A stretch of DNA of 64,000 nt. Origin: Chrysomallon squamiferum (lineage: Eukaryota > Animalia > Mollusca). The notes beneath the pieces were generated by a model. It did no database searches and was not told the origin of the DNA. It was given only the letters and a program-made list of their open reading frames with translations. A program made the translations under genes and the position numbers. Numbering within the stretch: position 1 is the stretch's first letter; each line of letters begins with the position of its first letter. Below, piece after piece: positions 19,935 to 44,951 of the stretch. Location: positions 16,492,001 through 16,556,000 of the forward strand of contig CM022670.1 in the NCBI GenBank assembly GCA_012295275.1, in the 5' to 3' direction.

Positions 19935-21122
19935 ATGATGTCTGAAGAACAGAAAATAGATCTTGGAGACGTGGAATTGCTCGCAGAAGACAAACCACTG
20001 AAAAGTCTTATTGCTGAAAAGACAGCATCACTCGACTCTCAGGTATCACAGTTTTCTATTTTTATACACCCACTTTTATATTCATTACATTTTTATAAAT
20101 GTTCGTTTTTCATTTCCTTCAATACATGGCCGTAACTAGACTCTTTTTGAAATGAGACAAAAACACGTAATCGCCGAGCGAAGCGGGGCAAAATGTGTGC
20201 ACGGAGTCTCGGGGGTTTCAAACGGTAACCGTAGACATGAGCGAATTCATTCAGTGGATATCATTTCTATCGGAATAGAAATTTATATTTTTTAAATAAA
20301 ATTCCTATCAAAAACTAACAAACCCCCTCCCTCCCAAAAAACACTCAACAAATTATCAATTTCGGTATGAGGCATTTGTCTCATTTGCATCAGTGTAGTA
20401 TTATAAAATATGAAATTATAACTATTACTAATAGATTTTTTAAAATTAATATTATTGTTTTGTTGTTGTTGTTGTTGATGCTGTTGTTATTATTATTATT
20501 ATTATTATTACTGTCATTATTATTATTGTTGCTATTGTTTTAACAGTAGAAGTAGTAGTAATAATAGTAGCTGTATTTGAAAAATTATTGTTCGTGTGTC
20601 TAAACGCAGAGTAAATACCTCTACTACTTCTGTATTAATGATAAATTAAAAAAAAATGTTTATAGATTCTATGGAAAATATCACAACATCACTTACGGAT
20701 GTATAAAAGTAGCCATTTTAGTGCAATCTATGTCGCAATACATTATAAATATAATACCAGAAATAGAACGTAAATCAACGCAAATCAGTGTTACAAAAAG
20801 GGTTTTATTTGTTTATTTTTTAATTAGGGAAATGAGAATTCTTTCTTCATGGTTGATCTTGCTGATATAATCAGCAAAAACGAGAACTGGAAAAAACATT
20901 TTCCTCGGATTGAACCTTTTTATGGTGAGTAGTGACAGAATTCTGATGAACAGAATCACAAACCGATAATATATTTTATAATCACTAATCAGATCATTTT
21001 AGGAGCTGAATCAGAGATCTCAACTAACGACGGGTTTGCTATTATCATTCAGACAAGAAAACAAATAGGAATTACACTTACATGAATAGAGTAGTTACAT
21101 AAAGATAATACTCTATTTTTAC

Positions 21123-21159
<37 letters not shown>

Positions 21160-22349
21160 AGAACACACATACTATGTTTTAAAATACTCTATAATTAAGC
21201 ATGAAAATTGATATATGTGTGTGTTTGTGTGTAATTATATTATTTTGTGTTATTAGCTGTTAAATGCAATGATGATTATGCTGTGTTAAAGTTGCTTGCT
21301 GATCTGGGAACATCATTTGACTGCGCCAGTAAGGTAAAACATCTACTGATATATCACCACAAACAAATAACAAGAAATAAAATTAAAATGTCGATTGACT
21401 TTCAGTGAAGAACAATTAACACTCGCACATGTATTTGTTTTATCAATACAAGTAGGAACTATTACGTTAATGTTGGAATATATTATTAATTTTGAAATAT
21501 AAGTAAAAGGACTATTTTTTTAACAAAAAATGATTTTTCAAAGTACATTGCAGTTATACAACATATAAATTATTAGCAGTTTGTTTTGTATATAATAATC
21601 TCAAATAAAATAATTCCAAACAAACAAACAAACAAACAGTAAGTAAATAAATAATATAAAATATTTTTAAAATAAAACTCTGTAATAGTCAAGAACATAA
21701 ATTTTAACAGAGTTAGTCTTAGAGTTAGTTATCTGTTTTCCAGACTGAAATTAGCAAGATTCTGAATCTTGGTGTATCACCTACGCGAATTATCTATGCT
21801 AATCCGTGCAAGCAGAAATCGTACATCAAGTACGCGGCGAAGCACAACGTCAACACACTCGTGTTTGACAACGAGGAAGAGCTGTACAAGACGAGGGAGA
21901 TATTCCCTGATGCCAGGTAAACACTCAACATTTCTTTTTGCCTTTAACTAGTGTAACTGTCGCAGTTTGTTTGTAACAACTTCACACTTTAAATATGACA
22001 ATCATAGTGCTGATCGCAAATATCGAATTTGGATTCAGTTCTGTTTGTTGTCATTCTCTTTTATAAATTATTAATGCAGGTAAAACCTTATCCTAAGATA
22101 CTATAACGTATCGTAATAGTGGATAATTTGAACATATTTGGTATTTTTTTTTTCAGATTAGTTCTACGCATCAGCACCGTTAGTAAAAGCACTTTTATGT
22201 ACAAATTTGAAACGAAATTTGGCTGTAGTCCTGATATGGTTCTGCCACTTCTGTCTAAAGCCAGGCAACTGGAAATGAATGTTATTGGAATAAGGTAAAA
22301 TGTGTCATCATTTTTACGATTTACTACCACAGCCTTTTTGATTTGAAAA

Positions 22350-22413
<64 letters not shown>

Positions 22414-25409
22414 TAAAATATCAAAATAATGTTAATGAGTATACTGTAAGGATTTTGTCAGTTTATTGATATGTATACGTCTGAAATTACAAGTAAGCGC
22501 TAACATGAGAAATTTATTGTTTATTTATGATGAAACAAAACGACTATCTGCATATCATTTAACATTACAGAGAAAATTCGGAAAGAGATAACCACAAAGT
22601 CAATTTCGGTATAAGGCATTTGTCTCGTTTGCTTCAATGTAGTTACGGCCATGCATTTTCTTTTTAGTAGATAAATAACTTATATGCTTTTTAACAACAC
22701 AAAATTAATTTTAGTTTTCATATTGGCGTTGGAACCGGTTCGGCTGAGGCTTATGCTGAAGCCATTGAACAGGCTAATTACGTGTTTGAGTTGGCTCAGA
22801 AGAATGGTTTTCATTTTGAACTCCTAAATATAGGAGGAGGATTTCCAGCGAAAGGCTTCAGTTCAGTGACATTTTCAGAGGTAAAAGTATACGCGCGCGC
22901 GCGCGCGCACACACACACACAGAGGGACACACACACACACACACACAAACATAAACAGACACATACAAACAGAAATACACAAAAGCAGAGACACACACAC
23001 ATACAACCACACAAACACTATTTAGAGAAAGAGACACACAGACATATCCACTCACTTACACGAATACGTACACATAGACACACCGACACAATGAGAAAAA
23101 CCCATCGAAACCCGAACATGGCCTACAGTTATTTTGCAACGGCGTCAGTCGCTCAAAAGTTGTTGATGATAATATAATATTGTTCAATGGATAACAAGAC
23201 AAACTTCTTACAGTAGTGAAGTTCGTACACTGGTCTCACTAATCGTAACTTTTTATGACTAATAATGGACAATGTTACGTGTCGATTTTAAACAAAGAGT
23301 TTAATGATTCTGAATATTGAACTATTTAATAAATAACACGCTTCGTAATAAACAGTTGACATTAGTTAACTAAGATAATTTTCAGTTAATACATATATTA
23401 CATTATTATGCACAGTAACACATATAATTTATTACATTAGGTAGCCGATGTTGTCAATAAAGCACTGGACAGATATTTTCCCTGTGAAAGAGGTATACGA
23501 ATAATTGCAGAACCAGGCAGATACTATGTAACATCAGCCTACACTCTGGTGCTGAACGTTATTGCTAAACGTTCCATGAGACCAAATATTCTAGCTAATG
23601 GTTTGGGTAAGCAGATTACGACCACTTACTTTCATCACTGATATACATGCTAGTAGCAGCAGAAGTATTAGTAGTTTCATTAGTGATAATCACAAACTTA
23701 AAATTCTAATAATAATCAGTCTGTATAAAATAGTTTTATTAGTATTTCCTATTAATTCAATTCCTTGCATTTCCTCTTAATATACATTGCATTACTAAGA
23801 TAACACTTACAATGATTATTATTATTAGCATTATTATTAAAGGTTTTTTTATCATCAGGATCTCAGGACAAATCAAAAACAATCATGTACTATGTGAATG
23901 ACGGACTGTTCGGATCCTTCAGCTGTGTTAACTTCTTTCCCAATCAGATTGTTCAAGCTCAGCCAGTAAAGGTATTATTATTATTATTTTTTTACATACA
24001 AAAGCCGTAACATTTTACACATAGACACACCCACCCAAAACACACACATACACGCAAACACACACACGCAAGCAAACACACACAATGATTCATAATGACC
24101 GTATCATTTAGATTCTGTACTACTTTCAGGACTGCCGCACAAAGCCAGCATTCAAATCTGTTATATGGGGCCCAACCTGCGGAATCGACAGCATAACTGA
24201 AAACAGTCTTCTCCCAGAACTAAATGTTGGCGACTGGCTCTTCTTTGAAAACATGGGAGCTTACTCGCTGACACCAGCCACTGACTTCAATGGTATGCCT
24301 CGTCCCGGTAGATATTTCTTCTGCAATAAATGGAGATGGTTAGTATTTAGAAAATTACAGTATTTTGGTTTTTATTCTATTTTAGATTTTCACCTGTGGG
24401 AATACACATACACACATATTTATACATAAACACCGTACTCACACATTACATACACACACAGATCGTGCTTACACGAAATACACGAATACAATTAAACAAA
24501 CAACCTCACGAACACATGCTTACACAAAATATACATACAGACATAAAATACAAGAATTAAAACAAAAATCTCATGCTTAAACAAAAATATAAAACCATAC
24601 AAAATCGCACACTAATATAATATATATACCAAACAAAAGCATACGTAAGACACATAAAAAGCGAATGCTTACATAAAATACATAAATATTCTCTTACAGA
24701 AAATACTTCCAGAAACATCTGCTTACAAACAACCCACAAACAAGTTCATTATACAAAGAAAAACACTTCTTTTACAAAATACAAAAACATCTTATACAAA
24801 CACACACGCAAAACCTACAGTACACACACAAACACATGCTTACACAAAATATACACAAACACGAATATACAAAAATTGGCATAAACACATATTTACACGA
24901 AACACATATGCAATAGACAGATTCATTCTTACACAAAATGAACACATAAATATATGCTTACACAAAATAAACAAATGCATTCTTACCCCAAAAAATAAAT
25001 AAATAAAAAACAAAAATAAAATAATAATAATAATAATCCCAAAACACACACAACCACTTTCTTACACAAAATGCAAACACAAAAGCACCTTTACACGAAA
25101 ACACATACACCCATACACAAACAATTGTGTTACATGTAGTATCCCATCTTCTGAGCTGCAGCCAGAATATTATAATAAAAGTAAAGGTAACGATGTTCTT
25201 CACATTGAAAAATTAAATGAAAAAAAAAAGAAAATAATGAAACTGATTTCTTAATAAATTAATATCTGTAAAATATATCACAGATAAAAAGTGATACTTA
25301 ATTCTTGCTAAATTGGTGAATTTTTAAGATGTACGCTAACTAAAACTGTAAAGTTCTGTTTTGTAGGTGCAGTGTACATCCAGAAGGAAATTTAAAACAT
25401 TCTGAATAG
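19935..25409 (+). CDS. Ornithine decarboxylase-family (fold-type III PLP) protein, copy A, 429 aa, non-canonical substrate pocket
   Basis: Ten GT-AG exons in frame without stops: 19935-20042, 20828-20924, 21257-21333, 21744-21916, 22157-22294, 22715-22880, 23441-23606, 23859-23971, 24130-24338, 25367-25409. Motifs [82 protein letters not shown]. Confidence 0.93.
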
Positions 25410-26759
25410 GAAATGAAGCTGTGAAACATTAAAACATTGGTAACGATGGTTCTAGTAGTTTAACTTATAGAGTTACACAATCGTGTTAAAATCAACATTG
25501 TTAGTCATACTAAAAATTGGTTCTTAGTTTCACTTTATATGATCATTTTATATGATCGATTATCAGTCGCTTTTACCTTACAAAGATGAAATACATTTTG
25601 CAGTAAAAAGAGTTATAATTATTTTATCTAATTTCATTTTTAATCATTTAGAAGACGGAGTAACATGCGGAATATACTTCTACTTGGCATAAGTAGACCA
25701 AATCTGAAATATTAGTTCAATCGGAGCAGTAGTTTTGGACCTACAGGCCCTCGCATTTTGGCATTCTACCAAAAATAGGTTAACTGCCATGATATCTTGG
25801 TAACCAATGGATCGATTTTGATGACGTTGGTGTGATTGGAAAGCTAATGTGATAAGGATTCCAAAATGGCCCGTAGCTGCAAAACTACTGCTGAGGTTAA
25901 AATTTCTTCGGTGATTTAATATGGAATGAGTCTATAAAGAAATCAAATTGGCTGTTAAAATGAGAACAAGAAAACATAAAATATATGTGAAAAACGATAT
26001 ATTGTTAAGCACACCAACTCCTCAACAACAATTTGAAAAATATATAAATATTTCGTAAACGCCAGTTGCAACAGAGTGTCCTGAATACTGTTATTTGATA
26101 ATCTGTCACAGCTTTATCAGAAACAGATTTATTTTTCTATATTTTATTCTTTGACGCTAATTTTTAAATATTATACAGAAAAATGTGTATCTTTTGTTTG
26201 TTGTAGTTTTTAAAGTTTATTTAGAATGTAGAGGCAGGTGGGTCAGTAATTTTGTTATTAAGTAGTTTAAGTTTGGTGTGGGTTATGTCAGGCAAAACTA
26301 CTGTCAAGCTGTAGCAATATTTTATTTATTTGTTGGATGGCTGAATACTGTTCTTCTTTCACATTAATGTATTTTGTTATTGAAAAATATAAATTTTCAA
26401 ATCTATAATTGATTTATAAATAATTTCTTTTACACACATACTTTTGTCTGTGTCAAAACTATTCGTTATATGAAATCCTGTATGTATATCTCTTATTAAC
26501 ATATGATAATAAAATAATAAATATATATAACTGTTTGTGATTATAATATATTTACACTTACATTTAATTTTTGCCAGTGTGAAAACTGTTCGTCTCATTT
26601 AATACTGTGCATGAAATACACCTATATTAAGATTATAAAATTACTCTTGAGCTTCAAAAGAAAACGCATATTTCTTAGTGTGCCAGTGGCTGTGGTTTAG
26701 ATTGTGTACATTTCAATTAGCAGTGCAAGTACAACCTATTAAAGTTCCCTAGGATGCAC

Positions 26760-27720
26760 TAAAATAACGTGGTTCACAAATCAACTTTTGTTGTTTTTGC
26801 ACTGTCAATAATTCGTACAAAAATGTACATTTTCAATTGAAATTGTGAAATGGGAAGGCATAGAGTATTTAGTGTTGAGAAATAGAATAGAAATAGAAAA
26901 ATGACATGTTGTCATCCAGGGATTTTGAAAAACCTCTAGGTTGTCGCACTAGCGCTAACACTAGATTGGCACAAAAACAAACCCAAATTAACGCCATAAT
27001 AGACCGTCAAAGTTCGGAAGAACCAAAACGTACATGAAGATCGAAAAATGTTAAGGGTTGTAAAACTTGCCCGTTTCCTCGTTGCTTCTGAACTTACGAA
27101 TCATGAACCAGTGGTATGAACGGATGGTGAGAAATCGTCTCAAGGCTACAATATACCGTGCTCATCTTAGAAATGATAGACTAGAACTTGGCTTGTTGTT
27201 CAGATGAACGTAGGATGCTGTTGCAGTTTATCGATGGTCGAATACGTGTTTGGAGACAGAATAACAGTCAGTTTATTCCTAAAATGTACAGGCTGACCTT
27301 CAGTTAGGTGTGGGATCATTAACAATTTTGGGATTTATTTTACACGGATGCAAACTGCAAAAAATATCACACTGATATCCTTGATTCGAGTGTAGTGACG
27401 CATTTCGACAACCATTCTCTAAGAAGTGTGCATCGATGACAGCACTCCACCTCACTAAGCAAGCGCCGTAATGGAGTTTCTCAAAGATTCTACCAAGACC
27501 AGTTTGCAGTTTTTATCTCAAACCCACTGAAGAGCTGTGGGACATTGGTGAACGTAACACACGTAAAAAAAATCCGCCAAATGAAACTGTAGCAGAATGT
27601 GAAACTGCTTTACATCAGGAATGGGCCTTAGTCCCTCAGCAAACAATTCAGAAATTAATTCTTAGCATGAGGTTTAGTGTGGTCTGTGCACATGCATCCT
27701 ATACAAGTTATTGAGTGACT
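26760..27720 (+). mobile_element. Degenerate Tc1/mariner element
   Basis: Fragments LFSDE-like...DGRIRVWRQ, DLKPTEELWD-like, PPNETV.ECETALHQEWALVPQQTIQKLILSMR (Tc1 C-terminus); many stops and frameshifts. Confidence 0.8.
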
Positions 27721-28254
27721 GGTAACGTCGTAATAATACTGAAAAAAAAATATAGTACGAAACGTGTACGAGATGGTATTACGTCAGAGTTACAAAAACA
27801 AATTTTGACCTTTGCAGCAATTGATACTCAATAATAGATATCTATGAATACGAGGCATTGATTAAATGACATATTTCCCCAAATTACTTTTAATAATACA
27901 TGTAGAATTGATTGGATTATGAAGACATACGTATTTAAACGTTTGTAATCACTAATCGGCGTTCCAAATTATTTTGCGTCCATTTTTCAGAACTTTTTAT
28001 GATTTAGACTGATAAAGGTAAGGATGGTTGTTCATATTACCAAACCATGATGTCACTCCTTTTGTAACTACTTTTTCAACTTAATCAAACTTTTCAAACT
28101 GGATTATTTTTGTGTAAATGTGTGCATAATAAACTGAAATTATAATGCGGAATAAGATTAATGTATTAACTTTTGTAGTTGTCAATGTTTCCCCTCTCAG
28201 AACCCATCAGAAAAGAACATTTAGGGATTGTTTGTACCCATTAAATCGGCGAAA

Positions 28255-28860
28255 TTTCTTGAGGCTTTTTTCCGTGACGTAATTTGTGCCGTTACGAGTT
28301 ATCGTTCCTGTTGGTCCATGCTCAAAGGTTAGAGTTCATAAGATGTTTAACAAGCATTCGTAATTAAAAGGTAATAAATGGTACCTGTTTAATTTTCAAA
28401 TCACAAAATTATTAATCGTTTTGTTATTTCCACCGAAACGACAGGAGCACCCTGTCAGTTTCTCTGAACACCACTTGAAACAGCCCGACTATCCTCTGGA
28501 TGAGGACAGATCAGATGTCCATTTAGATGGATATCGCTGGGTCTCCCCCAGAGATAGGTCTGTTTCGTTTTATTTGGCTAATCTTTGCCACCCGTACGGC
28601 TGGCAACGATTCCATCTAGTATACTCATTTAAAAATAATTTTGGCTTCAACCACATTTAGATCGGTTATTTTCGTATTCGCTGGTGCCATAAAAAAAGTA
28701 CCATTTAATCGTACATACGCACGCTGCAAGAAGAAACCCAAGACCCCCATCATAAAATCACGTCACGTCGTATCGAATAGTTGTCACGTTTTAATCAGAT
28801 GAACGTCACGTCACTCTTTAATTCAAATAGGTCCGAAGATTTCCGAATTGGCGAATTATG
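28255..28860. promoter_or_regulatory. CpG-richer region with clustered ACGTCA/TGACGT (CRE/ATF-like) motifs; likely promoter of the spacer gene
   Basis: gtgacgtaat (~28274), tcacgtcacgtcg (~28758), gtcacgtt (~28783), aacgtcacgtcac (~28802). Confidence 0.35.
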
Positions 28861-29986
28861 AAAAAGTCTTGGGTTTCTTCTTTAATTTAATTAAATTAAT
28901 TTGTTTATTTGTTCTCATTTGTGTTGTTCGCAATATAAGCTGTACAATAATAGCTGGACTGTTAAACTAAAAGTTTTATCAGAATGTTGACTAGATTTTA
29001 TCACGCTGTAGTGATTTAAAAGGTTAGCTGTTACTGTATTTTGGTATATGTGCAGGTCTGTGCACTTCATGAGAGTGATAATATATTTTGTACGCTATAT
29101 AACTAATAAACGAGCAATAACATCATTTATAAAATATATAACATTTTCACTATTTTGTAAATTAGAAAATGTTAATAAACAAAAGTTAATATATAATAGG
29201 GAATATGTATTACAGGTCTCTCTTTACTGTTCCTTAACAACGAGTTACGATCATGTTGCTTTCTTGACTTACTGAATACATTTTAAAATGATATTTATTT
29301 CAACCATGTTGAAATGTAATCCTAACAGGAACTAAAACATGTACCTTACTTTTGATAAGAAACCTTTTTTCAAAATCAAACTGTTTTAATGATAAGAACA
29401 TAACTGAACAAAATCTGTTTAGTGGGCTTTGTTATCTGGTAAACTTGGCAGTCACTCTGTTTTGTCATTGTAAAATGAATTCAATCACGTCTGAACACAG
29501 AAACTAACAGTTCAACAAATATGACCCATGTAATGACCACATAAAACGTTTTGTTCTGAGTAAAGATGTCTGAGACTGTCAAAGAATACGAAAACGGTAT
29601 GTATTCCACCACTCTTATTACTTATATTATTTTCTGTTTTAATACCTGTGTCTGATTCCTTTTCATATAAATTTATGTCAAGTTACCTATTAAAGTTGGA
29701 GCTCATAAAATCAAAAAAGAACTTTCCTTTTTAAATGTTACTGATAATTCTTGCTGTTTATAATCTTTGATAATTATACCACTAAATACATACATGTGTA
29801 TACAGACACACATATAAAAACACACAGACAAACATACACAGACATAGACATAGATGGAATGACTAATTACTGTTTAACAAGCTTTATTCTGCTAAGCTGC
29901 AATAGTTTTTACACCTGAGATAAATAAATCTAAAATCGTAAGATATTAACCAGTTATTTTCCGTAATAATAATAATAATAATAATA

Positions 29987-30017
<31 letters not shown>

Positions 30018-30146
30018 CGATGATGATAATAAAATGAAATTAATCTTGTAGTTTACTCCATCTCTCGAGAATAATTAAACCCCAAAGAAGTAACTTTGAA
30101 TTATATATATATGTGTATATGAAAACAGCATGTATTTTATCGAAGT

Positions 30147-30240
30147 ACAGTATTCCCTCGCTATTCGCGGGGGTTACGATCTTTACCCCCCCGCGAATAG
30201 CGAAAAACCGCGAATATTGGATGCAGTTTTAAAACGTCTA
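30147..30240 (+). mobile_element. Tigger/pogo-type terminal inverted repeat fragment
   Basis: TA-CAGTATTCCCTCGCTATTCGCGG terminus with internal hairpin tcgctattcgcggggg...ccccccgcgaatagcga. The other end was not identified. Confidence 0.5.
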
Positions 30241-31631: not shown

Positions 31632-33317
31632 GGTATAAAGGAGAAAAAAGCTCGGAACCTGGAACTGATCTCCACGTTCAATGAGCAGCAAACTGATGAC
31701 GTCTATCTGCTTTTCCTGCAGTGTCTTCGCCAGACCGGACAGTCTCGAATGCTTGACTTGATCTCTGATAAGTATGACAGGATAAAGGCAATAAGCACAT
31801 GTAAGTATAATAGTAACATAACAGTATCGATGATACAAAGTTTATGAACGAGTGGAATTCAGGATATTTTTTTATTTAGTTTTATTTCATAATCAGAAAC
31901 ACCATTTGTTACTTTTTCAGCTCAAACAAACTTTCTTGAGGAAATTCAGGAAATGTGTAATTTCTTAAAGAAGGAGGAATCGCGTGTTGGCATTGACGCA
32001 ACAGCCAGCCGCAGTGATGAGGAAACGACAGTGGTGCCTTCTGCAGCTGAAAACAGTGTTCTGAGTTCTACTGTAGACTGTTCTGAACAAGCAGTAAAGC
32101 TTTTCAATCGTTCGAGACAGGTCATCAGAAAACTGCATTCTCAGTGTACTTCACTCGCTGAACAGAATGCCGAGATCACGCTGCAGGTCAAGAACTGTGA
32201 TTCAGACGTGAGGCATATTTTACACACGCATAAAATTGCTCCTTCTGTACACTGCACGCCAAGAACAGTTTATGATATGTTCAGTATTTTAATGGATGAT
32301 GTCAATATCCTTATTCGTCATGGAAGTAAGATGATCAGCAAGGTAAACGAAGAAAGAGCCCAGTCAATGAGACTGCTGCGGTTGTGTCGAGACTGCGTTG
32401 GTGAACGGAGCTCCATCTTGAAAGATTTTCATATCTCGACTTCAACCATGCGACATTCAAAAAGTCGAGTGCTAAAAGGTGATTGTGAGGTAAAGAATAT
32501 GAAAAATATGACCGCATATGGTGACATGAGAAGTGAACATGTGTCATTCCAAACTGTACTGGACGGACTGGTTTTATTGGAAGTGCAGCTGAAAGAATAT
32601 ATCTACAATGAAATAATGTTAACAAATAAATATAAAATGGAACTCAAACTAAAAAAATTGAAGAGGCAATGTCAGGGATTTTCTTCTGTTGGTTTTGCAA
32701 ACAGCAGTCGGCTGATTACGTGTATTCAGAATGGTGAAAATGTAAAAGAAAATGCACTTAAACTCAAAGTAATAATTCATAAGGTTTCAGAGGAATATGA
32801 AGAATGCATTCATTATTTAAGTAAAACATTACAAACAGAGGACATGACAGAATATATGGATGTCTCTAGCACTGACTTACTGACAGACAGAGATGATGAA
32901 AAAGAACAAAAGAAATCCCCAATAGGAACATTTGTGAGTATGTTTAAAAAACAACCCAAAACATCACCTAGGATGAATGTGCATTCTCTGCCAGACAGTA
33001 AGAGAACACTGCAGCTTCCTCTTGTTTCTGAAGACCAAAGCTGCCACAAAGAAGACAGAAAGCACAATTCCCCCAGACCAACTAAGTTAGTCGACAAACT
33101 GAAGATCCTAGTTTCAAATTACCAAGATATTAAATCTCATTCTGCATCAATGACACAAAAATTCAGGCAGGACTGGGAACGAAAAAAGCGAGAGTTAAAC
33201 AAAAAACTTCGAGTAAAGGATGAAGAAATTGTTCGTCTGCAACTCAGTCTCACAGAAATGACAGCTGAAAAGCAGAAATATCAAAAATTGTATGAACAGG
33301 CTAAGCTGGGATTTTGA
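31632..33317 (+). CDS. Uncharacterised protein with C-terminal half of a CARD/death-fold-like motif plus long coiled-coil region (last two exons; 5' end unresolved)
   Basis: Exon 31632-31800 (GIKEKKARNLELISTF...VYLLFLQCLRQTGQSRMLDLI) resembles CARD helices 4-6. It splices in phase 1 to a 1.4-kb open terminal exon 31921-33317 with heptad-rich segments (e.g. WERKKRELNKKLRVKDEEIVRLQLSLTEMTAEKQKYQKLYEQAK). Confidence 0.7.
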
Positions 33318-34938
33318 CATACTAATATATATATATATATGTTTAAGAAAGAAGTAAAAAACAAAAAGAAAAATTAAAAGAAAAGAAAAACTATATTAAA
33401 TTTTATTATCCAAGTTTATTATCTACGAAAACGATTATTGTTGTTATTTTCACACTGATCTCTTAACAAGAGTCTACAGGTAAAATTAAGTACAGTATAT
33501 GTGAATTATTATTTATAAAATTGCAGCTTATTTAAATGAGTTAATGGAGTGAACAGACACAGTCCTATTGGACGGATCAAACTTTGGTTAATGAACTATA
33601 TTGGTTTCCTTACCATGTGTTCATTTTCTGTTCGCTTGCAAACACACATTTACATATACACTTAGAGATTGTTATAAATCCATGTATTTTGTATGATTAC
33701 ATGAAAATGAAATAAAAATATAATTATAATTATAAGGCCGCAGGTTATTATTTTGGGTAGTTCTGCTTTGCAAATGAAAAATTGTTTAGTTATATGGATG
33801 TATGTTTATTATAATTGATCTTTTGATGGTAAAGCAGATTTGATACTACTCCTAATTTTTAATTTTATATATATATATTCTGAACTGAATTTGAAAAAAA
33901 AACCGTGCCAATCAGTGCAAGCTGTTGTGAAGCACGCTCTCTGACAAAGCAGACTGAAGCGCAAGGAGCTGGTCGTGATGTCTTTCTTGTTGATGTTCCA
34001 GGAGTTGTGCTTTTGTTTTTATCACCAACTTCGTGAAGAACTTATTGCATTTTTTTTTCTTTCTGTGGCTATGTTAGGTGTTATTATGTTGTTCATATTT
34101 TTGTTGTCCAGTCTCTACCATCCAACAATTTCCAACATTTGTTTTTGTTTGTTTTGGTTTTTTTTTTTTGCCACTGGTCTTTTTACTGATAAAAAATATT
34201 ATAAATAAGAAAAACAACAGTAATAATCATGCCATGCTGAAAGTAGAGATGATTAGAACAATGTATTTACAGGTGGTGATAAACTTTCGTTTGACTGATG
34301 TTAGGTTTAAGGTTTTAGATTTTCTTTCTGTCTATTTCATGTCTTAAATGACGCCTTTTGTTATGTACCTGAAAGTATAAGAAAGTAATTAATTAGATGA
34401 TTATACACATTTTGTGGTCCGCTAGCTTGGTTATTATTAGGTCCTGTACTCTGAAAGTAAGTAGTTCTTTTTTCGTTTTATAAATTTATATTATATCGTT
34501 TGATTAGTTCAACCAATTAATCAATCAGCTGCTTCCATGAGTGGATCAGCTGGCTGGTCAGACAATTAATCTATTATTTAATTAATTCGCTCATTTAATT
34601 GCTTTGCACTGGTATATTTTGTTATTTATCTCTTTTATTTTATTTATTTATTATTATTTGAATTGTTATTTGAATTATTTGATCGTGTTATTTCATATTA
34701 TGTTTTTATCTTTATCTAATCAAACGTTAATTTGTCTAGTTACTTGCTTGAATCAAAGTTTGTATTTTGTTTGTAAGTTGTTACTGCAGCGAGGACTGGT
34801 TCTCTCTTTTTCACTGTTTGTGCTAAAAGTTACATTTCAAACTGCTTGGAAATTGAATTAAACACAGTTTACTAAAAAGAGTCTTATTTTATGATATTTG
34901 ACATTCTGCATACTAATATATATAAAATGTAAACTTAC

Positions 34939-35385
34939 TTACTCAGAAATTCCTGCTCTACCCGATTGACAGATCCAGGACGACAGATCCTCAGTCACCC
35001 AATGGCTTGAAATAGTTTAATCAGGAAACATGAAATTAATGTGCCTGTCCGCCCTAGTCCTGCTGAAAATGAGTTCAAATATATTTACATAGTATATAAA
35101 CTCCAGCGGTTAAATTTTAAACAAACTTTCTTGAAAGAATATAGGAAAATATCAAAGCCACACGTCTACAATGTACGCAGTGGCTCCAGAGGAATGTTCA
35201 GCTATGTCCAGAAACTGCTGTATGATATCATCACGTGGAATGGTGTCATCTTTAAAATACAGATTATAAAAATTTGAACCCTGTCTCTGTAAATTTCTTT
35301 TCTTCATATTGTTTTGAGTTCAATCGGACAACTGTGGTGACGTTATGTTTACGGAAATATGGAATGTATACGTCTAAAGGGTAAC
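34939..35385 (-). pseudogene. CDC14: Intron-retaining CDC14 pseudogene fragment (two catalytic-domain exons)
   Basis: 35164-35385 reads [73 protein letters not shown]. 34939-35062 reads GLGRTGTLISCFLIKLFQ-----AIG*LRICRPGSVNRVEQEFL. Lesions: acceptor AG->GG, +1 and -1 frameshifts, TGA at a Trp codon, in-frame deletions. Confidence 0.88.
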
Positions 35386-36548
35386 CCGAAAAGAAGATAA
35401 CATTATTTAACATACACTGTATTTACACTAATCACAGCTTACTAAAGCAAATATTCAAGTAAAAAATAATTTCTAAGATTTTATTCAAATTAAATTATCA
35501 GCTCTAAATGTTTGTTAATTTCCCTGTGTGTAGCTCTATTCATGAGTTATTTCCCTTCGACAAATATTTTGTAAGATACTTGAAAAGCAAACTCTATTAT
35601 GAATTACGTGGCATTCTGTAATACACAGACTGCATTTCAGTACTAAATAAAGTAACCAATTTTTACGAAGAGTTCATAACAAAGTTACTTTCTGAATGTG
35701 GGTTATTCACTTAAATGATACACTAAGACATGAAGATCAGAAATATTTAAAAGTATTCTTTTCAAATGCACAGTTTTAAGGCAGATATTTCTGAAACTGA
35801 AAATATACACCACCAACCAAAATAAAAACTGTATAAAACTAGAGTGAATTTCCTTGGAATCATTTATAAGTATGCAATAATTTAAAATTGATTAATTTCT
35901 CTTAATTGAAATTATTACTTACGTAAGTATCACTTAGATATGAGACAAAAATGTTAAAATAGGAAATAATGGCATGAATCTGTATTCCAAAAATAAAAAC
36001 TAATTTTATACATTGTCTATTTGGTTGTGGATAGAAAAAACCTGCACCAGCAGTTTAATCAGAGCTGACTCCTTGAGCACCAATTAATATTCTTGTGTAG
36101 AGAACACAATAAGAAACTAAAACCTTCTTGTTTTGTCAAAGCCGTACCAGAAATTTTCTTATAGAAAATTGTTTATTTACTATCTTAGAAATAGTTTACC
36201 TAAAATTAGATAAACAATGTTGTTTTTTCAGTAACCTACCACTTACAATTTAATGTAATTCAAGTTAAAATTTTGTCAGCTTAATGATTAATGTCCTGTT
36301 TTTGAAACAAAAAGACCCCAGTGTATATGTGTATGTATGTGTGTGTGTATGCACACACGTTTACAAATACATGTTCGTATTTACTAGTATAATTATAAAC
36401 GATTATAAACAGTATGAGTTATAAGTAACATTTAAAAAGGTATGTTCTTTTCTAATTATAGGAGCACTGAATTTAACAGATAACTTGACATAAATTTATA
36501 TGAAAAGGAATCACACTCAGAGGAATAAAAAGTGAAAATAATATCACA

Positions 36549-37460
36549 CTGAATTATTTGCTGTGGGACCAAAGCCCATTCCTGATGTAAAGCAGTTTCA
36601 TTTGGTGGATTCTTTTTACTTATGTTTTTCCACCAATGTGCCACAGGTGTTCAGTGGGTTTTAGATAAAGACTGTAAACAGGTCTTGGTAAAGTCTTTGA
36701 GGGTGCCTGATGAAGAAACTCCACTACAGCACTTGCTCAGTGTTGTGGAGTCCTGTCATCGATGCACACTTCTTAGATAATGGTTGTTGAAATGCGTCAC
36801 TACACCCGAATCAAGGATATCAGTGTCATTTCTCCCCACTGAGTGTTTTTTTTTTTGCAGTTTGCATCCGTGTAAAATAAATCCATAATTGTTAATCATC
36901 CCACACCTAACTGAAGGTCAGGTTGTACCTTTGACTGATATTCTTTTTCAAAAAACGAACGCAACTGTCAGAAACCTGCATTAGCATCCTAGATTCATTT
37001 GAGCAACAAGCCGCTACTTGATCCTGCATCAAACGTTCATGGATATGTCTATCAGTCAGCTGAGGAAGTTTAACGGGTCTACTAGCACGGTATATCGCAG
37101 CCTTGAGACGATTTCCAACCGTCTGATCATAGCCCACTAGTTCCTAAGTTTATTAGTATATTTCGATCTTCACGAACAGATGTTGTTTTAGGTCTTCCGA
37201 ACCTTGCACGGTCTATTATGGCGTTGATTTGTGTTTGTGTTTGTACCAGTTTAGTGATAGTGCTATTGTGACAACCAAGAGGTTTTTCAGTATACCTGGA
37301 TGACATTATGTCATTTTTCATTCCATTTATTCACCATCTCTCAGCAATAGTCTATGCCTTGCTGTTCAGAATTTCATCTGAAAATGTACATTTCTGTTCG
37401 AATTATTGACAGCGCAAAAACAACAAAAGTTGAATTGTGAACCACGTTATTTTAGTGGAC
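36549..37460 (-). mobile_element. Degenerate Tc1/mariner element (duplicate of 26760-27720, truncated at the duplication boundary)
   Basis: ORF fragments GRPKTTSVREDR, RLKAAIYRASRPVKLPQLTDRHIHERL and PPNETALHQEWALVPQQIIQ. Confidence 0.8.
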
Positions 37461-38969
37461 TCTAGGGAATATTAATGGATTGCACGTGCATTGCAAACTG
37501 AAATATACACGATCTAAACTGCAGTCATTGGCACTGAGAAATGTTCGTTTTCTTTTGAAACTCTTCATTTAGAGTAATTTTATAATCAGTTCTTAATAAG
37601 AGGTTTACGTAGAGTATATTTAATGAGACGAACAGTTTTGACACTGATAAAAATTAAGTGTATGTGTAAATATATTATAATCACAAACAATTATATATAT
37701 TTATTATTTTATTATCATATGTTAATAAAATATTTATATGCAGGATTTCATATAACGAACAGTTTTGACACAGACAAAAGTATGTGTGTGAAAGAAATTA
37801 TTTATAAATCAATTATAGATTTGAAAATTTATATTTTTCAATAACATAACACATTAATGTGAAAGAAGAACAGTATTCAGCCATCCAACAAATAAATAAA
37901 ATATTGCTACAGCTTGACAGTTGTTTTGCCTGACATTACCCACACCAAACTTAAACTACTTAATAACAAAATTACTGACCCACCTGCCTCTACATTCTAA
38001 ATAAACTTTAAACACTACAACGAACAAAAGATACACATTTTTCTGTATAATATTTAAAAATTAACGTCAAAGAATAAAATATAGAAAAATAAATCTGTTT
38101 GTGATAAAACTGTGACAGATTATCAAATAACAGTATTCGGGGCACTCTGTTGCAACTGGCGTTTATGAAATATTTATATATTTTTCAAAATGTTGTTGTT
38201 TGTGTGCTTAATGATATGTCGTTTTTCAAATATATTTTATGTTTTCTAGTTCTCATTTTATGGACTCATTCCATATTAAATCACCCAATAAAAGTAAAAT
38301 TTTAACCTCAGCAGTAGTTTTGGACCTGTGCGTCCTTAAATTTTGGCCTTTTGGTCTTTATCAAGAAAATAATAAGAAATTTGGAATCCTAATCAAATTA
38401 GCTTTCCAGTCACACCAACGTCATCAAAATCGATCCATTGGTTACCAAGATATCATGGCAATTAACCCATTTTTGGCAGAATGCCAAAATTCGAGGGCCC
38501 GTAACTCCAAAACTGCTGCTCCGATTGAACTAATATTTCAGATTTAGGCTACTTACGCCAAGTAGAAGTACTGGTTAATATAATCCATATATTACTCCGT
38601 CTTCTAAACGATTAGATAGAATATTTATAACTCTTTCTACTGCAAAATGTATTACATCTTTGTAAGATAAAAGCGGCTGATAATCTAGCAAAATGATCAT
38701 ATAAAATGAAACTAAGAACCAATTTTTAGTATGACTAACAATGTTGATTTAAACACGATTGTGTAACTCTGTAAGTTAAACTGCTAGAACCATCGTTACC
38801 AATGTTTTAATGTTTCACAGCTTCATTTCCTATTCAGAATGTTTTAATTTCATTCTGGATATACGCTGCACCTACAAAACAGTTTCAGTTAGAGTACATC
38901 TTAAAAATTAATCAACTGTGCAAGAAACTGCTTTCTAAAACTGAATATCCACATGAAAATTCCAGCTGC

Positions 38970-39005
<36 letters not shown>

Positions 39006-39112
39006 TAATAATAATTTCTTCATATATATGTATTTATTTAGATAAACCATTTGATTTACAGTTATTTTATTTTATTTTATTTTTATTCTTTATTCTTTAT
39101 TTTTATTTTATT

Positions 39113-41320
39113 TCAAGCATTTCCATTCAGAATGTTTTCATTTCCTTCTGGATATACACTGCACCTACAAAACAGAACTTTATAGTTTTAGTTAGCGTAC
39201 ATTTTGTATGTATCTATGTGTTTTCGTGTAAACGTTCTATTCTGTTTGTATTTTGTTTTTTGCGGGGTATTTTTTTGTAAGAATGTTTTTATTCGCTTTG
39301 TGTAAGAATGTGTTTGTATGCTCATTTTTTGTAACAGTGAATCTGTCTATTGCATGAGTGTTTTGTTTATGTCAATTTTTGTGTTTTCGTGTATTTTGTA
39401 TATTCGTATGCTTTTGTATATTTTGTGTAAGCAAATGTTTGTGTGTGCATTGCAGGTTTTGCGTAAGTGTGTGTTTATGTGTAAGATGTTTTTGTATTTT
39501 GTAAAAAAATGTGTTTTTCTTTGTAAAATGTAGTTGTCTGTGCGTTGTTTTTGTAAGCAGATGTTTCTGCATGTATTTTCTGTAAGAGAATATTTATGTA
39601 TTTTATGCAAGCATTCGCTTTTTATGTGTATTGCATAGGCATCTGGGTTGTTTTTTGTTTTTTGTATGTATATTGTATAAACGTGTGATTTTGTCTGTTA
39701 TTTGTGTAAGCATGTGCTTTTAAGATTTGATTATGTAAATTTCTGTATTGTATGTCTGTGTGTATATTTTGCGTAAGCACGTGTTTGTGTGTTTTTTGTT
39801 TAACTGTGTTTGTGTGTTTCGTGTAAGCATGAGTCTGTGTGTATGTAATATGTGAGTACGGTGTTTATGTATAAATATGTGTGGACTTGTATTCCCACAG
39901 GTGAAACTTTGAAATAGAATAAACCCCCCAAAATACTGTAATTTTCTAAATACTAACCATCTCCATTTATTGCAGAAGAAATATCTACCGGGACGAGGCA
40001 TACCATTGAAGTCAGTGGCTAATGTCAGCGAGTAAGCTCCCATGTTTTCAAAGAACAGCCAGTCGCCAACATTTAGTTCTGGGAGAAGACTGTTTTTAGT
40101 TATGCTGTCGATTCCGCAGGTTGGGCCCCATATAACAGATTTGAATGCTGGTTTTGTGCGGCAGTCCTGGAAGTAGTACAGAATCTAAATGATTATGAAA
40201 CCAGTAATGTGTCTGTGTGGGGTTTGTGTATGTGCCATTCTAATATTTTATAACATTTGTACAAAAAAAAAAAAAAAGGATAAATAATACCTTTACTGGC
40301 TGAGCTTGAAAAATTTGCAATGGAAAGATGTTAACACAGCTGAAGGATCCAAACAGTCCGTCATTCACATAGTACATGATTGTTTTTGATTTGTCCTGAG
40401 TTTCTGATGATAAAAAAATCCTTAATAATAGTAATACTGATACTACTACTACTACTACTACTACTAATAATAATAACAATCATTGTCAACGTTATCTTAA
40501 TAATGCGATGTACATTAACAGGAAAATTAATTAATAGGAAATATAAATTAAACTATTTTATACTGACTTATTATTATTACAGTTTAATTTTGCTATTGTG
40601 ACTAATGAAACTACTAATACTACTGCTGCTACTAGTAATGAAATTACTACTATTATTGCTATTATTGCTACCATTCCTACCATTACGGCTACTACTATTA
40701 CTGTTAGTGCTATTATCATTATTATGATTTTCTGCTCATAAACCTATCAGTGATAAACTGCTTACCCAAACCATTAGCTGGAATATTTGGCCTCATGGAA
40801 CGTTTAGCAATAACGTTCAGCACCAGAGTGTAGGCTGATGTTACATAGTATCTGCCTGGTTCTGCAATTATTCGTATGCCTCTTTCACAGGGAAAATATC
40901 TGTCCAGTGCTTTATTGACAACATCGGCTACCTAATGTAATAAAATAAAAGAGTTAATGCGCACAATAATGTAATTTACCTATTAACTGAAAATTATCTT
41001 AGTTATCTAATGTAAACTGTTTATTATGTGAATCATGTTATTTATTAAATAGGCTTGTATTCAGGATCATTAAACTCTTTGTTTAGAATCGATCATTAGT
41101 CACAAAAACTACTATTACTGAGAACACTGTTCGAACTTCACTGTTGTAAGAAGTTAGTTTCGTTAGCCACTGAGCAATATTATAGTATCACCTATAACTT
41201 TTGAGCGACAGACGCCGTTGCAAATAACTGTAGGTAGGCTATGGCCATTTTGATTTGAGGAGTTTTTCTTCATCTGTCGGTGTGTCTGTGTGTACTTGTT
41301 CGTGTGTGAGAGTGGATGTG

Positions 41321-41408
<88 letters not shown>

Positions 41409-43585
41409 GTGTGTTGTGTGTGTGTCTCTGTTTGTGTGATTGTATGTGTGTGTGTGTGTCTGCATGTTTGTGTTTCTCTGTGTATGCATGTATCTGCGTA
41501 TGTATGTGTTTGGGTTTATGTATGTGACTGTGTGTGTATATGTGTGCGTGCGCGCGTGTGTTTTTACCTCTGAAAATATCATTGAACCGAAGCCTTTCGC
41601 AGGAAATCCACCTCCTATATTTAGGAGTTCAAAATTAAAACCATTCTTCTGAGCCAACTCAAACACGCAATTTGCCTGTTCAATGGCTTCAGCATAAACC
41701 TCAGCGGAATCAGTTCCAATGCCAATATGAAAACTAAAATTAACTATGTGTTGTTAAAAGTATATAAATTATTTACATGCCAAAAAGAAAATATCATATC
41801 CATTTTCCACGTATGAAATCAGACATAAACAATGTGAAGACTGGATCAGAAATGTTTTTCAACTGATTTTTGTCAATAATTTGACCATGTTTGATTTTTT
41901 AAAGTGTTTGATTAAATGTTGTATCTGATTTCATCATACATAAACAATAAATTTCTCATGTTTGAGCTTACTTGTAATAAACTGACAAAATCCTTATAGT
42001 ATACTCATTAATATTTACACACTTTAACTATTATTATTTTAAAATCAAAAAGGTTGTGGTAAATCGTAAAAGATGATGACACATTTTACCTTATTCCAAT
42101 AACATTCATTTCGAGTTCCCTGGCTTTAGACAGAAGAGGCAGAACCATATCAGGACTACAACCAAACTTCGTTTCAAATTTGTACATTATAGGGATTTTA
42201 CTAACAGTGCAGATGCGTAGAACTAATCTGAAGAAAAAAAAAACGAATACGTTTAAACGCATTTCAGAATATCCACTATTACGAATGTTACAGTACGTTA
42301 AGTATTATCTTCAGAGGACTGTTGAAAAATTAAGGTTTTATTAATAACTTATAAAAGAGGATGACAACACAGGAAACGGTACTTGTCGTTATTTGTGGTT
42401 TACATCAGCACTGTGATTGCCATATTAAAAGTGTGAAGTTGTTACAAACAAACTGCGACAGTTACACTAGTTAAAGGTAAAAAGAAATGTTGAGTGTTTA
42501 CCTGGCATCAGGGAATATCTCCCTCGTCTTGTACAGCTCTTCCTCGTTGTCAAACACGAGTGTGTTGACGTTGTGCTTCGCCGCGTACTTGATGTACGAT
42601 TTCTGCTTGCACGGATTAGCATAGATAATTCGCGTGGGTGAAACACCAAGATTCAGAATCTTGCTAATTTCAGTCTGGAAAACAGATAACTAACTCTAAA
42701 ACGTTAAATTTCTTCCTTCTTCTTAACACACAACTACTTCGCATTTTGCTACAGTTATCGTTGTCGTAAATAAAAGATTTAACATGCTATAAGTAGCTGT
42801 ATTTAGATTACCATAAAATAAGTTTCATGCTCTGAAATGGTACTGATAAGACTTATAATAAAGAAAGCGAAAAGTATTTAAATTCTATTCAACTCATTAT
42901 TACTTCTGAGAACAAACATTAAGGAGATACAAGCATGGATTTAAAGTAAATGCCATTAGAAAAGCTGATGGACAATGAACAGTGTTTAAAAAGTTGTATA
43001 ATCAGTCTAAAATAAATTAATAAAATTGAAACCACTATCTTTTTTTTTTTTTTTTTTTTTCTTTTTTTTTTATGAATAAACTATTTAAAATTTATATTCT
43101 TGACTATTCTTGAGAGATTTGTTTAAAAAGTGTTTTATTATTTATTTATTGTTTGTTTGTTTGTTTGAGACTATTTTATTTGAGATTATTTTATACAAAA
43201 CAAACTGCTAATAATTATATATGTTGTATAACTGCTGCGTACTTTGAAAAATAAATTATTTTTTGTTCAAAACAAATAGTCCTTTTTCTTATGTTTCAAA
43301 ATTAATAATATATTCCTACACTGACGTAGTAGTTCCTACTTGTATTGATAAAACAAATACGTGTGCGAGTGTTAATTGTTCTTCACTGGAAGTCAATCCA
43401 CATTTTAATTTTATTTCTTGTTATTTGTTTGTGGTGATATATCAGTAGATGTTTTACCTTACTGGCGCAGTCAAATGATGTTCCCAGATCAGCAAGCAAC
43501 TTTAACACAGCATAATCATCATTGCATTTAACAGCTAATAACACAAAATAATATAATTACAGGATCATCACAAACACACGCATTT

Positions 43586-43617
<32 letters not shown>

Positions 43618-44330
43618 GTATGATGATAATCCATTTTTGTGGATTTATAATTATACAGTATTTTAAAACGTAGTATGTGTGTTCTTGATGTATATATATA
43701 TATATATTCAGTAAAAACACAGTATTATCTTTATGTAACTACTCTATTCATGTAAGTGTAATTCGTATTTGTTTCCTTGTCTGAATGATAATAGCAAACC
43801 CGCCCTTACTTGAGATCTCTGATTCAGCTCCCAAAATTATCTGATTTATTATAAGTGATTATAAAATATCAGTTTGTGATTATATTCATCAGAATTCTGT
43901 CACTACTCACCATAAAAAGGTTCAGTCCGAGGAAAATGTTTTTTCCAGTTCTCGTGTTTGCTGATTATATCAGCAAGATCAACCATGAAGAAAGTATCAT
44001 CATTTCCCTAATTTAAAAAAAAAGAAAAGAAAAAAGTACTTTTTGGAACATTACTTTGTGTGGACTGAACTATAATACAAACAACAGTTCAGTTTCTGTT
44101 ATTATATTTATAATGCATTTCAATACAGATTGCACTAAAATGGCTACTTTTATACACCCATAATTGATGATGTGATATTTATTGAAATTCAACATTAACA
44201 CAGAAAAAGTAGAGGTATTTACTCTGCATTTGGCACATAAGAACAGTAATTATTCAAATACAACTACTACAACTATTACAACTACTTCTACTGTTAAAAC
44301 AATAACAACAACAATAATAATAATGACAGT

Positions 44331-44379
<49 letters not shown>

Positions 44380-44870
44380 CCAGCATCAACAACAACAACA
44401 ACAATAACAACAATAACAAAACAATAATAATAATAATAAAAAATTGTATTAGTAATAGTTATATTTTCATATTTTATAATATTACACGGCCGTAAATACA
44501 TTGATGCAAATGACGGAAATGCCTTATATCGAAATTGAGAAAAAACTAAATTTTTTAGAAACGATAATCACTGAATGAATTCGTTAGACGTCCCTAGATT
44601 CTTCGCCCACTTTTTGCCCCGCTTCGCTCGGCGATTAAGTGTTTTTGTCTCATTTCAAAAAGTGTCTAGTTACGGCCATGTATTAAGGGAAATGAAAAAC
44701 GAACATTTATAAAACTGTAGCAAATATAAAAGCGGGTGTATAAAAATAGAAAACTGTGATACCTGAGAGTCGAGTGATGCTGTCTTTTCAGCAATAAGAC
44801 TTTTCAGTGATTTGTCTTCTGCGAGCAATTCCACGTCTGCAGGATCTATTTTCTGTTCTTCTGACATCAT
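39113..44870 (-). CDS. Ornithine decarboxylase-family (fold-type III PLP) protein, copy B, ~432 aa, non-canonical substrate pocket
   Basis: Exons 44763-44870, 43911-44007, 43458-43534, 42502-42674, 42090-42227, 41568-41733, 40766-40931, 40291-40403, 39958-40166 and 39113-39164 (alternative terminal exon 38850-38871). Exons 1-9 are the same sizes as in copy A, all GT-AG, no stops; ~29 aa differences over exons 1-9 by manual count. Confidence 0.93.
41322..41560. repeat. (TC)n ~80 bp plus degenerate (TG)n in ODC-like copy B intron 6
   Basis: Directly visible. The (TC)n run is expanded relative to the paralogous intron at ~23020-23045. Confidence 0.92.
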
Positions 44871-44951
44871 AAATAAGATGATGGAATTCTTCAGTCTAAA
44901 AATATTTGTTAGTGAATAAAAATGTCTTAAGATGAGATAGACGGGGAGTGA

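What the first reader, a model, noticed from the sequence alone, without database searches (positions are those of the whole stretch)
19935..44870. Twin ODC-family enzymes with an intact PLP catalytic core but a rebuilt, hydrophobic substrate pocket: candidate new amino-acid decarboxylase
Seen: both spliced proteins keep the Schiff-base Lys (PFYAVKCN, K69), D88/E94, K169, H197, the GGG phosphate loop, E274/R277 (EPGRY), C360 and Y389. Both read WGPTC-GID where ODC has WGPTCDGLD, a clean one-codon deletion of Asp361 (24166-24190; 40108-40130). They read [10 protein letters not shown][F/I]FP where ODC has GVYGSFNCILYDH (Y323F, D332F), and FHIG[V/I]G for FHVGSG (S200V/I). Established: D332 and D361 coordinate the distal amine of ornithine, the 328-333 3-10 helix is the specificity element of fold-type III decarboxylases, and the mouse ODC paralog Gm853 became a leucine decarboxylase. 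Inference: these are probably not ornithine decarboxylases but active enzymes for a neutral, hydrophobic or aromatic substrate, producing an unknown amine. The alternative is independently evolved antizyme inhibitors. Two intact 10-exon copies argue against decay.
Basis: partly seen in the sequence, partly recalled or inferred. Interest (0 to 1): 0.85.

Follow-up and report, generated by a model that had tools for sequence, protein, structure and literature searches.

The report
Snail decarboxylase twins with rebuilt pocket
Two intact, recently duplicated copies of an ornithine decarboxylase gene, likely from a deep-sea vent snail, keep their catalytic residues but have lost the acidic residues that grip ornithine, so they likely make a different, still unknown amine.

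Summary
Two inverted, intact 10-exon ODC-family genes (429 and 432 aa, 92% identical) keep K69, D88, E94, R154, K169, H197, GGG, E274, R277, C360, D364, Y389 and F397. The closest relatives are from the vent snail Gigantopelta aegis: one canonical ODC and three divergent paralogs that also alter this pocket. Change is focused: 11 of 20 conserved pocket-segment positions versus 6 of 92 elsewhere. The AZIN signature (R277S, Y331S, Y389D) is absent. A canonical-type ODC fragment appears in sequencing runs labelled as the same organism. Best reading: a non-ornithine decarboxylase, likely for a neutral amino acid (0.52). No substrate, structure or expression was shown. Against: mouse leucine decarboxylase keeps both aspartates, Entamoeba ODC lost Y323 and D361 yet still turns over ornithine, and D233N, S200V/I and the deletion beside C360 could cripple catalysis. 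It is a new variant of a recurrent kind.

The parts
19935..25409 (+). ODC-like gene copy A, 10 coding exons (19935-20042, 20828-20924, 21257-21333, 21744-21916, 22157-22294, 22715-22880, 23441-23606, 23859-23971, 24130-24338, 25367-25409), 429 aa
   Evidence: Pfam PF02784 and PF00278 on exons 4, 7, 9
39113..44870 (-). ODC-like gene copy B, 10 coding exons (44870-44763, 44007-43911, 43534-43458, 42674-42502, 42227-42090, 41733-41568, 40931-40766, 40403-40291, 40166-39958, 39164-39113), 432 aa
38850..38871 (-). second copy of B's last coding exon; would end the protein at 422 aa
21262..21264 (+). K69 (Schiff-base lysine) codon of copy A; copy B at 43529-43527
22161..22217 (+). loop before K169 in copy A (C164Y, L166F; differs between A and B at 4 residues); K169 at 22215-22217
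22719..22730 (+). H197 kept, S200V in copy A; S200I in copy B at 41720-41718
22827..22829 (+). D233N in copy A; copy B at 41621-41619
23510..23521 (+). E274 and R277 kept in copy A; copy B at 40862-40851
23906..23953 (+). specificity-helix segment of copy A: V322L, Y323F, N327S, D332 lost, no acidic residue in 20 positions; copy B at 40356-40309
24178..24189 (+). C360 followed directly by G362 (D361 codon absent), D364 kept, copy A
40107..40118 (-). C360 followed directly by G362 (D361 codon absent), D364 kept, copy B
24262..24288 (+). Y389 and F397 kept, T390S, T396D in copy A; copy B at 40034-40008
16598..29840 (.). left arm of the inverted duplication that carries copy A (blocks 75-92% identical to the right arm)
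36328..48433 (.). right arm of the inverted duplication that carries copy B

Best explanation
The two genes are intact, recently duplicated ODC paralogs that likely encode active PLP-dependent decarboxylases for an amino acid other than ornithine or lysine, most likely one with a neutral, non-polar side chain. Shown: the Schiff-base lysine, most PLP contacts, the catalytic Cys360, the CO2-site Phe397 and the dimer residues D134, K169, K294, R277, D364 and Y389 are kept, while both distal-amine aspartates are gone and the pocket segments carry F, Y, I, L, V and P. Inferred: the protein dimerises like ODC, binds PLP at K69, forms an external aldimine with a neutral amino acid, loses CO2 and releases a monoamine. 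Inferred history: a canonical ODC duplicated in a Gigantopelta-related snail lineage; the extra copy lost the long C-terminal tail, kept the catalytic chassis and has been retuning its pocket since, here in two twins that differ mainly in pocket segments.
For: Conservation gradient: copy A differs at 11 of 85 columns that are at least 99% conserved among 115 reference ODCs, against 101 of 139 variable columns, so the fold is under purifying selection. The changes are focused: 11 of 20 columns (at least 97% conserved) in the five pocket-lining segments versus 6 of 92 elsewhere, Fisher p=2e-6; 10 of 19 pocket positions versus 2 of 14 PLP or catalytic residues, p=0.033. A versus B: dN/dS 0.45 (33 N, 21 S; binomial p=0.0055); pN 0.112 in pocket segments versus 0.020 outside; 9 of 24 core amino-acid differences fall in 46 of 375 positions, versus 5.4% (maximum 13%) in 138 close pairs of reference ODCs. 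The three Gigantopelta paralogs show the same focus (17 of 44, 20 of 60, 14 of 54), replace D361 by A or C in two of three, and keep all of K69, D88, E94, R154, K169, H197, G235-237, E274, R277, C360, D364, G387, Y389 and F397. Literature: the specificity helix and the catalytic-Cys loop are the two elements that set substrate choice in this fold, and FigC replaced both aspartates when it left basic substrates (PMC7857480 section 8). A mouse paralog became a leucine decarboxylase (PMC6313458 passages). RNA and DNA contigs of runs labelled as the organism that holds the window carry a separate fragment whose 20 visible flanking residues match Gigantopelta's canonical ODC (loose ends, translated by hand, against P0033), so ornithine is likely served by another gene.
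Against: No activity, substrate or usable structure was obtained. S200 (139 of 142 others) and D233 (142 of 142) are also changed; S200 is listed among the PLP-stabilising residues, and I recall D233 as part of the acidic cluster near the cofactor. The deletion shortens the loop between catalytic C360 and D364 and could misplace either. Pocket pN (0.112) is about the intron divergence (0.113), which fits relaxation as well as diversification. The pocket segments were drawn after I had seen the alignments, so those p-values are optimistic. Mouse leucine decarboxylase keeps both aspartates, so pocket sequence does not predict substrate class reliably. Entamoeba ODC lost Y323 and D361 and still turns over ornithine (Km 1.5 mM).
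Confidence: 0.52

Rival explanations
1. The proteins are catalytically dead or nearly dead ODC homologs with a regulatory role: antizyme sinks, or dominant-negative partners of the canonical ODC.
For: Such paralogs are reported to have arisen repeatedly in eukaryotes, including invertebrates (Ivanov 2010 as described in PMC5574924 passages; the paper itself was not held). Two of the 18 key residues of that list are changed (S200, D361), plus D332 and D233. The 113-144 antizyme-binding region is well kept relative to snail ODC. Pocket segments evolve at about the neutral rate between A and B.
Against: The AZIN substitutions R277S, Y331S and Y389D (PMC4139326 passages) are absent; D134, K169 and K294 are kept. 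D361 and Y331 are antizyme contacts (PMC4595762) and are lost or altered. K125 is shared with canonical Gigantopelta ODC and residue 140 is Tyr, not the AZIN1 Lys. PLP and catalytic residues are kept along a stem of about 1.1 changes per site.
Confidence: 0.2
2. They are weak or broad-specificity ornithine/lysine decarboxylases, like Entamoeba ODC.
For: EhODC has His, Phe, Glu and Asn at 323, 331, 332 and 361 and still decarboxylates ornithine. T396D adds an acidic residue beside F397.
Against: EhODC keeps an acid at 332 and a polar residue at 361, whereas these proteins have no acidic residue in the helix segment and no residue at 361. A canonical-type ODC seems to be present in the same organism.
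Confidence: 0.12
3. They are active PLP enzymes with altered chemistry or a polar substrate: decarboxylation-dependent transamination to an aldehyde because the C360 loop is shortened, or decarboxylation of an acidic or N-acylated substrate read by the now unpaired R277.
For: C360 controls product formation and the deletion is adjacent to it. R277 pairs with D332 in ODC and has lost that partner. FigC uses the equivalent Arg for an N-acylated substrate. That C360 mutants shift to transamination is recalled; only the title of that paper was seen in reference lists.
Against: No new basic or polar residues appear in the pocket segments as they do in FigC and SbnH; the replacements are mostly non-polar.
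Confidence: 0.09
4. They are redundant duplicates under relaxed selection, on the way to loss.
For: Long stem branch (about 1.1 versus 0.07 for the canonical Gigantopelta ODC); dN/dS 0.45 between the copies.
Against: No stop, frameshift or broken splice site in either copy despite 11% intron divergence with many indels; strong conservation gradient; pN/pS about 0.3 outside the pocket.
Confidence: 0.07

Closest known systems
Eukaryotic ornithine decarboxylase (ODC1; PF02784 + PF00278; Gigantopelta aegis XP_041356932.1)
   Same: Fold family, 57% identity over 420 aligned positions to the Gigantopelta protein, 16 of the 18 key residues, antizyme-binding region.
   Different: D361 deleted, D332 lost, Y323F, S200V/I, D233N, C164Y; only 30-33 residues after F397 instead of 63-72.
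Gigantopelta aegis ODC-like paralogs (XP_041379578.1, XP_041362048.1, XP_041361185.1), uncharacterised
   Same: Sister clade in the tree (97/93; 86/77 without pocket columns); shared V322L, T390S, changed C164, Y323 and A334, short C-terminus; D361 replaced in two of three.
   Different: They keep S200 and D233, substitute rather than delete D361, and two of three keep D332; only 52-57% identical to the window proteins.
Mouse Gm853 / ODCrp / leucine decarboxylase
   Same: ODC paralog with an intact catalytic core, no C-terminal degradation tail and a neutral substrate: the functional precedent.
   Different: It keeps all 20 key residues including D332 and D361. Its sequence was not fetched; fish ODC-like proteins, used as vertebrate stand-ins, did not group with the window proteins.
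Antizyme inhibitors AZIN1/AZIN2
   Same: ODC paralogs without ornithine activity; D332 changed.
   Different: AZIN has R277S, Y331S and Y389D and a weak dimer; none of these three changes is present here.
Entamoeba histolytica ODC
   Same: Y323 and D361 lost, D332 altered, Cys kept.
   Different: It keeps Glu at 332 and Asn at 361, has measured ornithine activity, and is described as a single-copy gene.
Francisella FigC N-citrylornithine decarboxylase
   Same: Both substrate aspartates replaced while the catalytic Cys, His, Glu, Arg and glycine loop are kept.
   Different: Bacterial subfamily with new polar and basic residues deeper in the pocket for a large acylated substrate.

Membership tests
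Fold-type III (alanine racemase fold) PLP decarboxylases, ODC subfamily | PF02784 barrel domain plus PF00278 sheet domain; nests among animal ODCs | tested here: met
Ornithine decarboxylase (true ODC) | Schiff-base K69, catalytic C360, H197, E274, R277, Y389, glycine loop | tested here: met
Ornithine decarboxylase (true ODC) | D332 and D361 for the distal amine, Y323 | tested here: not met
Ornithine decarboxylase (true ODC) | S200 and the full set of 18 key residues | tested here: not met
   16 of 18; S200V/I and D361 absent (list)
Ornithine decarboxylase (true ODC) | Ornithine to putrescine activity; homodimer | not testable with these tools
   needs assay; dimer residues D134, K169, K294, D364 are kept
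Antizyme inhibitor (AZIN-type) | R277S, Y331S, Y389D; loss of PLP and dimer contacts | tested here: not met
   signature from PMC4139326; window has R277, aromatic or Ile at 331, Y389
Antizyme inhibitor (AZIN-type) | K125 and K140 high-affinity determinants | tested here: inconclusive
   K125 present but shared with canonical Gigantopelta ODC; 140 is Tyr
Antizyme inhibitor (AZIN-type) | Binds antizyme more tightly than ODC and has no activity | not testable with these tools
   needs binding assay; no snail antizyme sequence was fetched
Gm853 / leucine decarboxylase | All 20 ODC key residues kept, including D332 and D361 | tested here: not met
Gm853 / leucine decarboxylase | Orthology to the vertebrate gene | tested here: inconclusive
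   Gm853 itself not in the tree; window proteins nest with Gigantopelta ODC at 100/99, which points to an independent origin
Gm853 / leucine decarboxylase | Leucine to isopentylamine activity | not testable with these tools
   needs assay

The most novel reading that the evidence does not exclude
Vent-snail relatives of Gigantopelta evolved, from ODC, their own expanding family of amino-acid decarboxylases whose pocket is retuned after each duplication; the twins here make an amine or aldehyde not yet known from any animal enzyme of this fold, for example from a sulfur amino acid (cysteine to cysteamine, a possible route to hypotaurine, or methionine to methylthiopropylamine) or from an aromatic amino acid. 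The sulfur link is my speculation from recalled vent biochemistry, not from a call.
Probability: 0.15. Interest if true: 0.82.

Novelty: new variant of a known kind. Interest (0 to 1): 0.52.

Why it matters
Only one animal ODC paralog with a neutral substrate turned up in the papers searched (mouse leucine decarboxylase). ODC paralogs with altered key residues are usually filed as probable antizyme inhibitors without test. This clade offers five natural variants (two here, three in Gigantopelta) that keep the catalytic core and differ mainly in the pocket, one with a loop deletion not seen in 293 homologous motifs. Assaying them would test directly whether such paralogs are dead regulators or new enzymes, and could reveal an unknown amine in vent snails.

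Tried and rejected
No whole genome is held, so a canonical ODC elsewhere could not be shown directly; only the fragment bears on it, and its D361 codon lies just outside the letters shown. No RNA holder was listed; contigs of the three RNA runs lay on intronic repeats and not on the exons of copy A, which is no evidence on expression. In one search no X1 contig was laid across B's C360 codon; unexplained and not used. An exon-9 search of longer proteins gave 32 hits of 48 candidates, best identity 72% over 64% of the query and no close ortholog; the representative search gave no single-stretch hit above 77 bits; the ESM Atlas gave only the generic family. The alignment of exon fragments on a fish scaffold was wrong and not used. 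The PDB search with exon 5 gave mostly designed helical repeats. A single-sequence fold of the Gigantopelta paralog P0036 failed (mean pLDDT 47) and was not used; no model of the spliced window protein or of a dimer was made. The 38-row careful tree did not finish; the quick tree and smaller careful trees (22 and 16 rows) were used. No paper on D361A or D233 mutants was found; I could not check whether Asn at 233 occurs in active relatives (1 of 192 motifs had it). PMC6738921 held none of the five terms asked. Rejected: assembly artefact (two diverged copies and an X1 contig share the deletion); pseudogene; a downstream placement of the gap (the D361 gap restores G, I/L, D, I, E and LPE in register).

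Full report
Observation. The window holds two ODC-family genes on opposite strands inside an inverted duplication with arms at about 16.6-29.8 kb and 36.3-48.4 kb. Both splice with GT-AG at all nine introns to open frames of 429 and 432 aa that are 92% identical. Exons hit PF02784 and PF00278. tblastn finds no third copy in the window. HMMER aligns exon 9 to mouse and human ODC with a single gap at D361. Of 293 homologous motifs in 299 fetched proteins none has this deletion, while 17 have a non-Asp residue at normal spacing, so loss of D361 is recurrent in the family but the deletion form was not seen elsewhere. D332 is also gone; the segment has no acidic residue, and whether F or P stands at 332 depends on the alignment.

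Origin. An exon-4 search returned four Gigantopelta aegis proteins as best hits (73-77% identity; 17 hits of 28 candidates): one canonical ODC and three divergent paralogs, two of which report the same longest contig. In a careful tree of 22 rows the window pair nests with these four (100/99) and is sister to the divergent trio (97/93), on a stem of 1.1 changes per site against 0.07 for the canonical protein (quick tree of 38 rows agrees). Without the pocket columns (16 rows) the six-member clade stays at 99/99 but the sister relation falls to 86/77, so a shared origin of the divergent copies is likely, not proven. The trees used 20, 36 and 14 of the fetched proteins, picked as named molluscs and outgroups. 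The organism is therefore likely a snail related to Gigantopelta, a peltospirid vent snail (abstract start). Laying four runs on B's exons 8-9 showed, in all four, a 38-base match whose loose ends translate (by hand) to ten residues on each side that are identical to the canonical Gigantopelta ODC. This points to a separate canonical-type ODC in the organism of those runs; the D361 codon itself is not visible.

Pattern of change. Against 115 reference ODCs, copy A differs at 11 of 85 near-invariant columns, 20 of 72, 21 of 58 and 101 of 139 in successively looser classes; canonical Gigantopelta, Haliotis, Patella and Aplysia ODCs differ at 0-1 of about 85. In five pocket-lining segments (loop before K169, loop after H197, specificity helix, C360 loop, Y389-F397 loop) 11 of 20 conserved columns changed versus 6 of 92 elsewhere. 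I drew these segments after seeing the alignments, guided by PMC7857480 (passages and section 8) and PMC3543441 (passages), so the p-values overstate. The twins differ from each other mostly in the same segments (9 of 24 core differences in 12% of positions; 5.4% in 138 close reference pairs), and so do the Gigantopelta paralogs (26-39%). Overall dN/dS between A and B is 0.45; pN is 0.112 in the pocket segments and 0.020 outside, with pS 0.16 on only 31 sites and 0.066, and introns at 0.113. The pocket thus evolves at roughly neutral speed on a constrained chassis, which fits either retuning or relaxation.

Mechanism. PMC5518511 (section 20) lists the roles: K69 binds PLP; D88, E94, R154, H197, S200, G235-237, E274, R277 and Y389 stabilise it; D332 and D361 bind substrate; C360 controls product formation; F397 binds CO2; K169, R277, D332, D364 and Y389 serve the dimer. 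The window proteins keep all but S200, D332 and D361. PMC7857480 states that the specificity helix and the catalytic-Cys loop are the variable elements that set substrate choice, and that FigC replaced both aspartates. The simplest reading is a dimeric PLP decarboxylase whose pocket, now lined with F, Y, I, L, V and P, no longer takes a distal amine and likely takes a neutral amino acid (0.52). Dimerisation, PLP binding, turnover and substrate class are all inferred. The short C-terminus (30-33 residues after F397, against 63-72 in five canonical mollusc ODCs; 23-25 in the Gigantopelta paralogs, one of which is annotated as partial) suggests escape from antizyme-driven degradation, as argued for ODCrp.

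Results against. Mouse leucine decarboxylase keeps the D332 and D361 equivalents (PMC7671201 parts 2-3 of 4), so it is a functional precedent but not a sequence precedent. Entamoeba ODC lost Y323 and D361, has Glu at 332, and still decarboxylates ornithine with Km 1.5 mM at low activity (PMC3543441 passages; PMC2217671 abstract and section 21). S200V/I, D233N and a shortened C360 loop could lower or abolish catalysis; the role of D233 is recalled, not read. Inactive ODC paralogs are reported to have arisen many times (Ivanov 2010, seen only as described in PMC5574924 passages), which keeps a regulator role alive (0.20). Against that role, the AZIN changes R277S, Y331S and Y389D (PMC4139326 passages) are absent, and D361, an antizyme contact (PMC4595762 passages), is deleted.

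Novelty. The proteins belong to the ODC subfamily but fail the ODC, AZIN and Gm853 sequence tests. ODC paralogs with altered pockets are a known, recurrent kind; this snail clade and the deletion appear undescribed. Searches behind that: ornithine decarboxylase + hydrothermal vent + snail: 1 paper, a review of mollusc anticancer agents, listing only; 20 of 53 listed, none with the enzyme name; the three Gigantopelta genome papers listed have 0 occurrences of 'ornithine'; 20 of 4,414 listed, none on these snails. Supplements of the snail genome papers were not opened and subscription journals are not covered. Three look-ups in the scan's own notes gave nothing relevant.

Verdict. Real feature, new variant of a known kind, interest 0.52. 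It is a clean and cheap biochemical target with a natural series of variants, but the substrate is unknown and dead-enzyme and weak-ODC readings together hold about a third of the odds.

Noticed in passing
window 10602-12392 (+): Single-exon ORF of 596 codons with two DXD-type glycosyltransferase motifs; Pfam PF04488 in two stretches.
   Followed up: partly
window 31893-33317 (+): 474-codon ORF in the spacer between the two ODC-like copies, no Pfam hit; a 45-residue piece recurs at 51106-51225 at 62% identity.
   Followed up: partly
window 52427-63949 (+): Exons of a carbamoyl-phosphate synthetase gene, likely CAD (PF00988, PF00117, PF02786).
   Followed up: partly
window 2511-4393 (-): Exons of a dual-specificity phosphatase, likely CDC14-type (PF14671; the name is recalled).
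   Followed up: partly
window 38850-39164 (-): The last coding exon of copy B is present twice; the copy that aligns with A's downstream region ends early in a stop.
   Followed up: partly
window 20122-20400, 22599-22653, 23640-24013: Intronic pieces with very high contig depth in run X1, also hit by RNA contigs: likely a dispersed short repeat element.
   Followed up: no
P0001, P0002, P0028, P0086, P0162, P0176, P0184, P0194, P0293: Other ODC-like proteins, including cichlid and mullet ones, also replace D361 at normal spacing; several keep K69 and the E274/R277 motif. They may be further cases of pocket change.
   Followed up: partly
window 48802-50767 and 60885-61417: Further local inverted repeats (48.8-50.8 kb) and a tandem repeat of about 117 bases (60.9-61.4 kb).
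   Followed up: no
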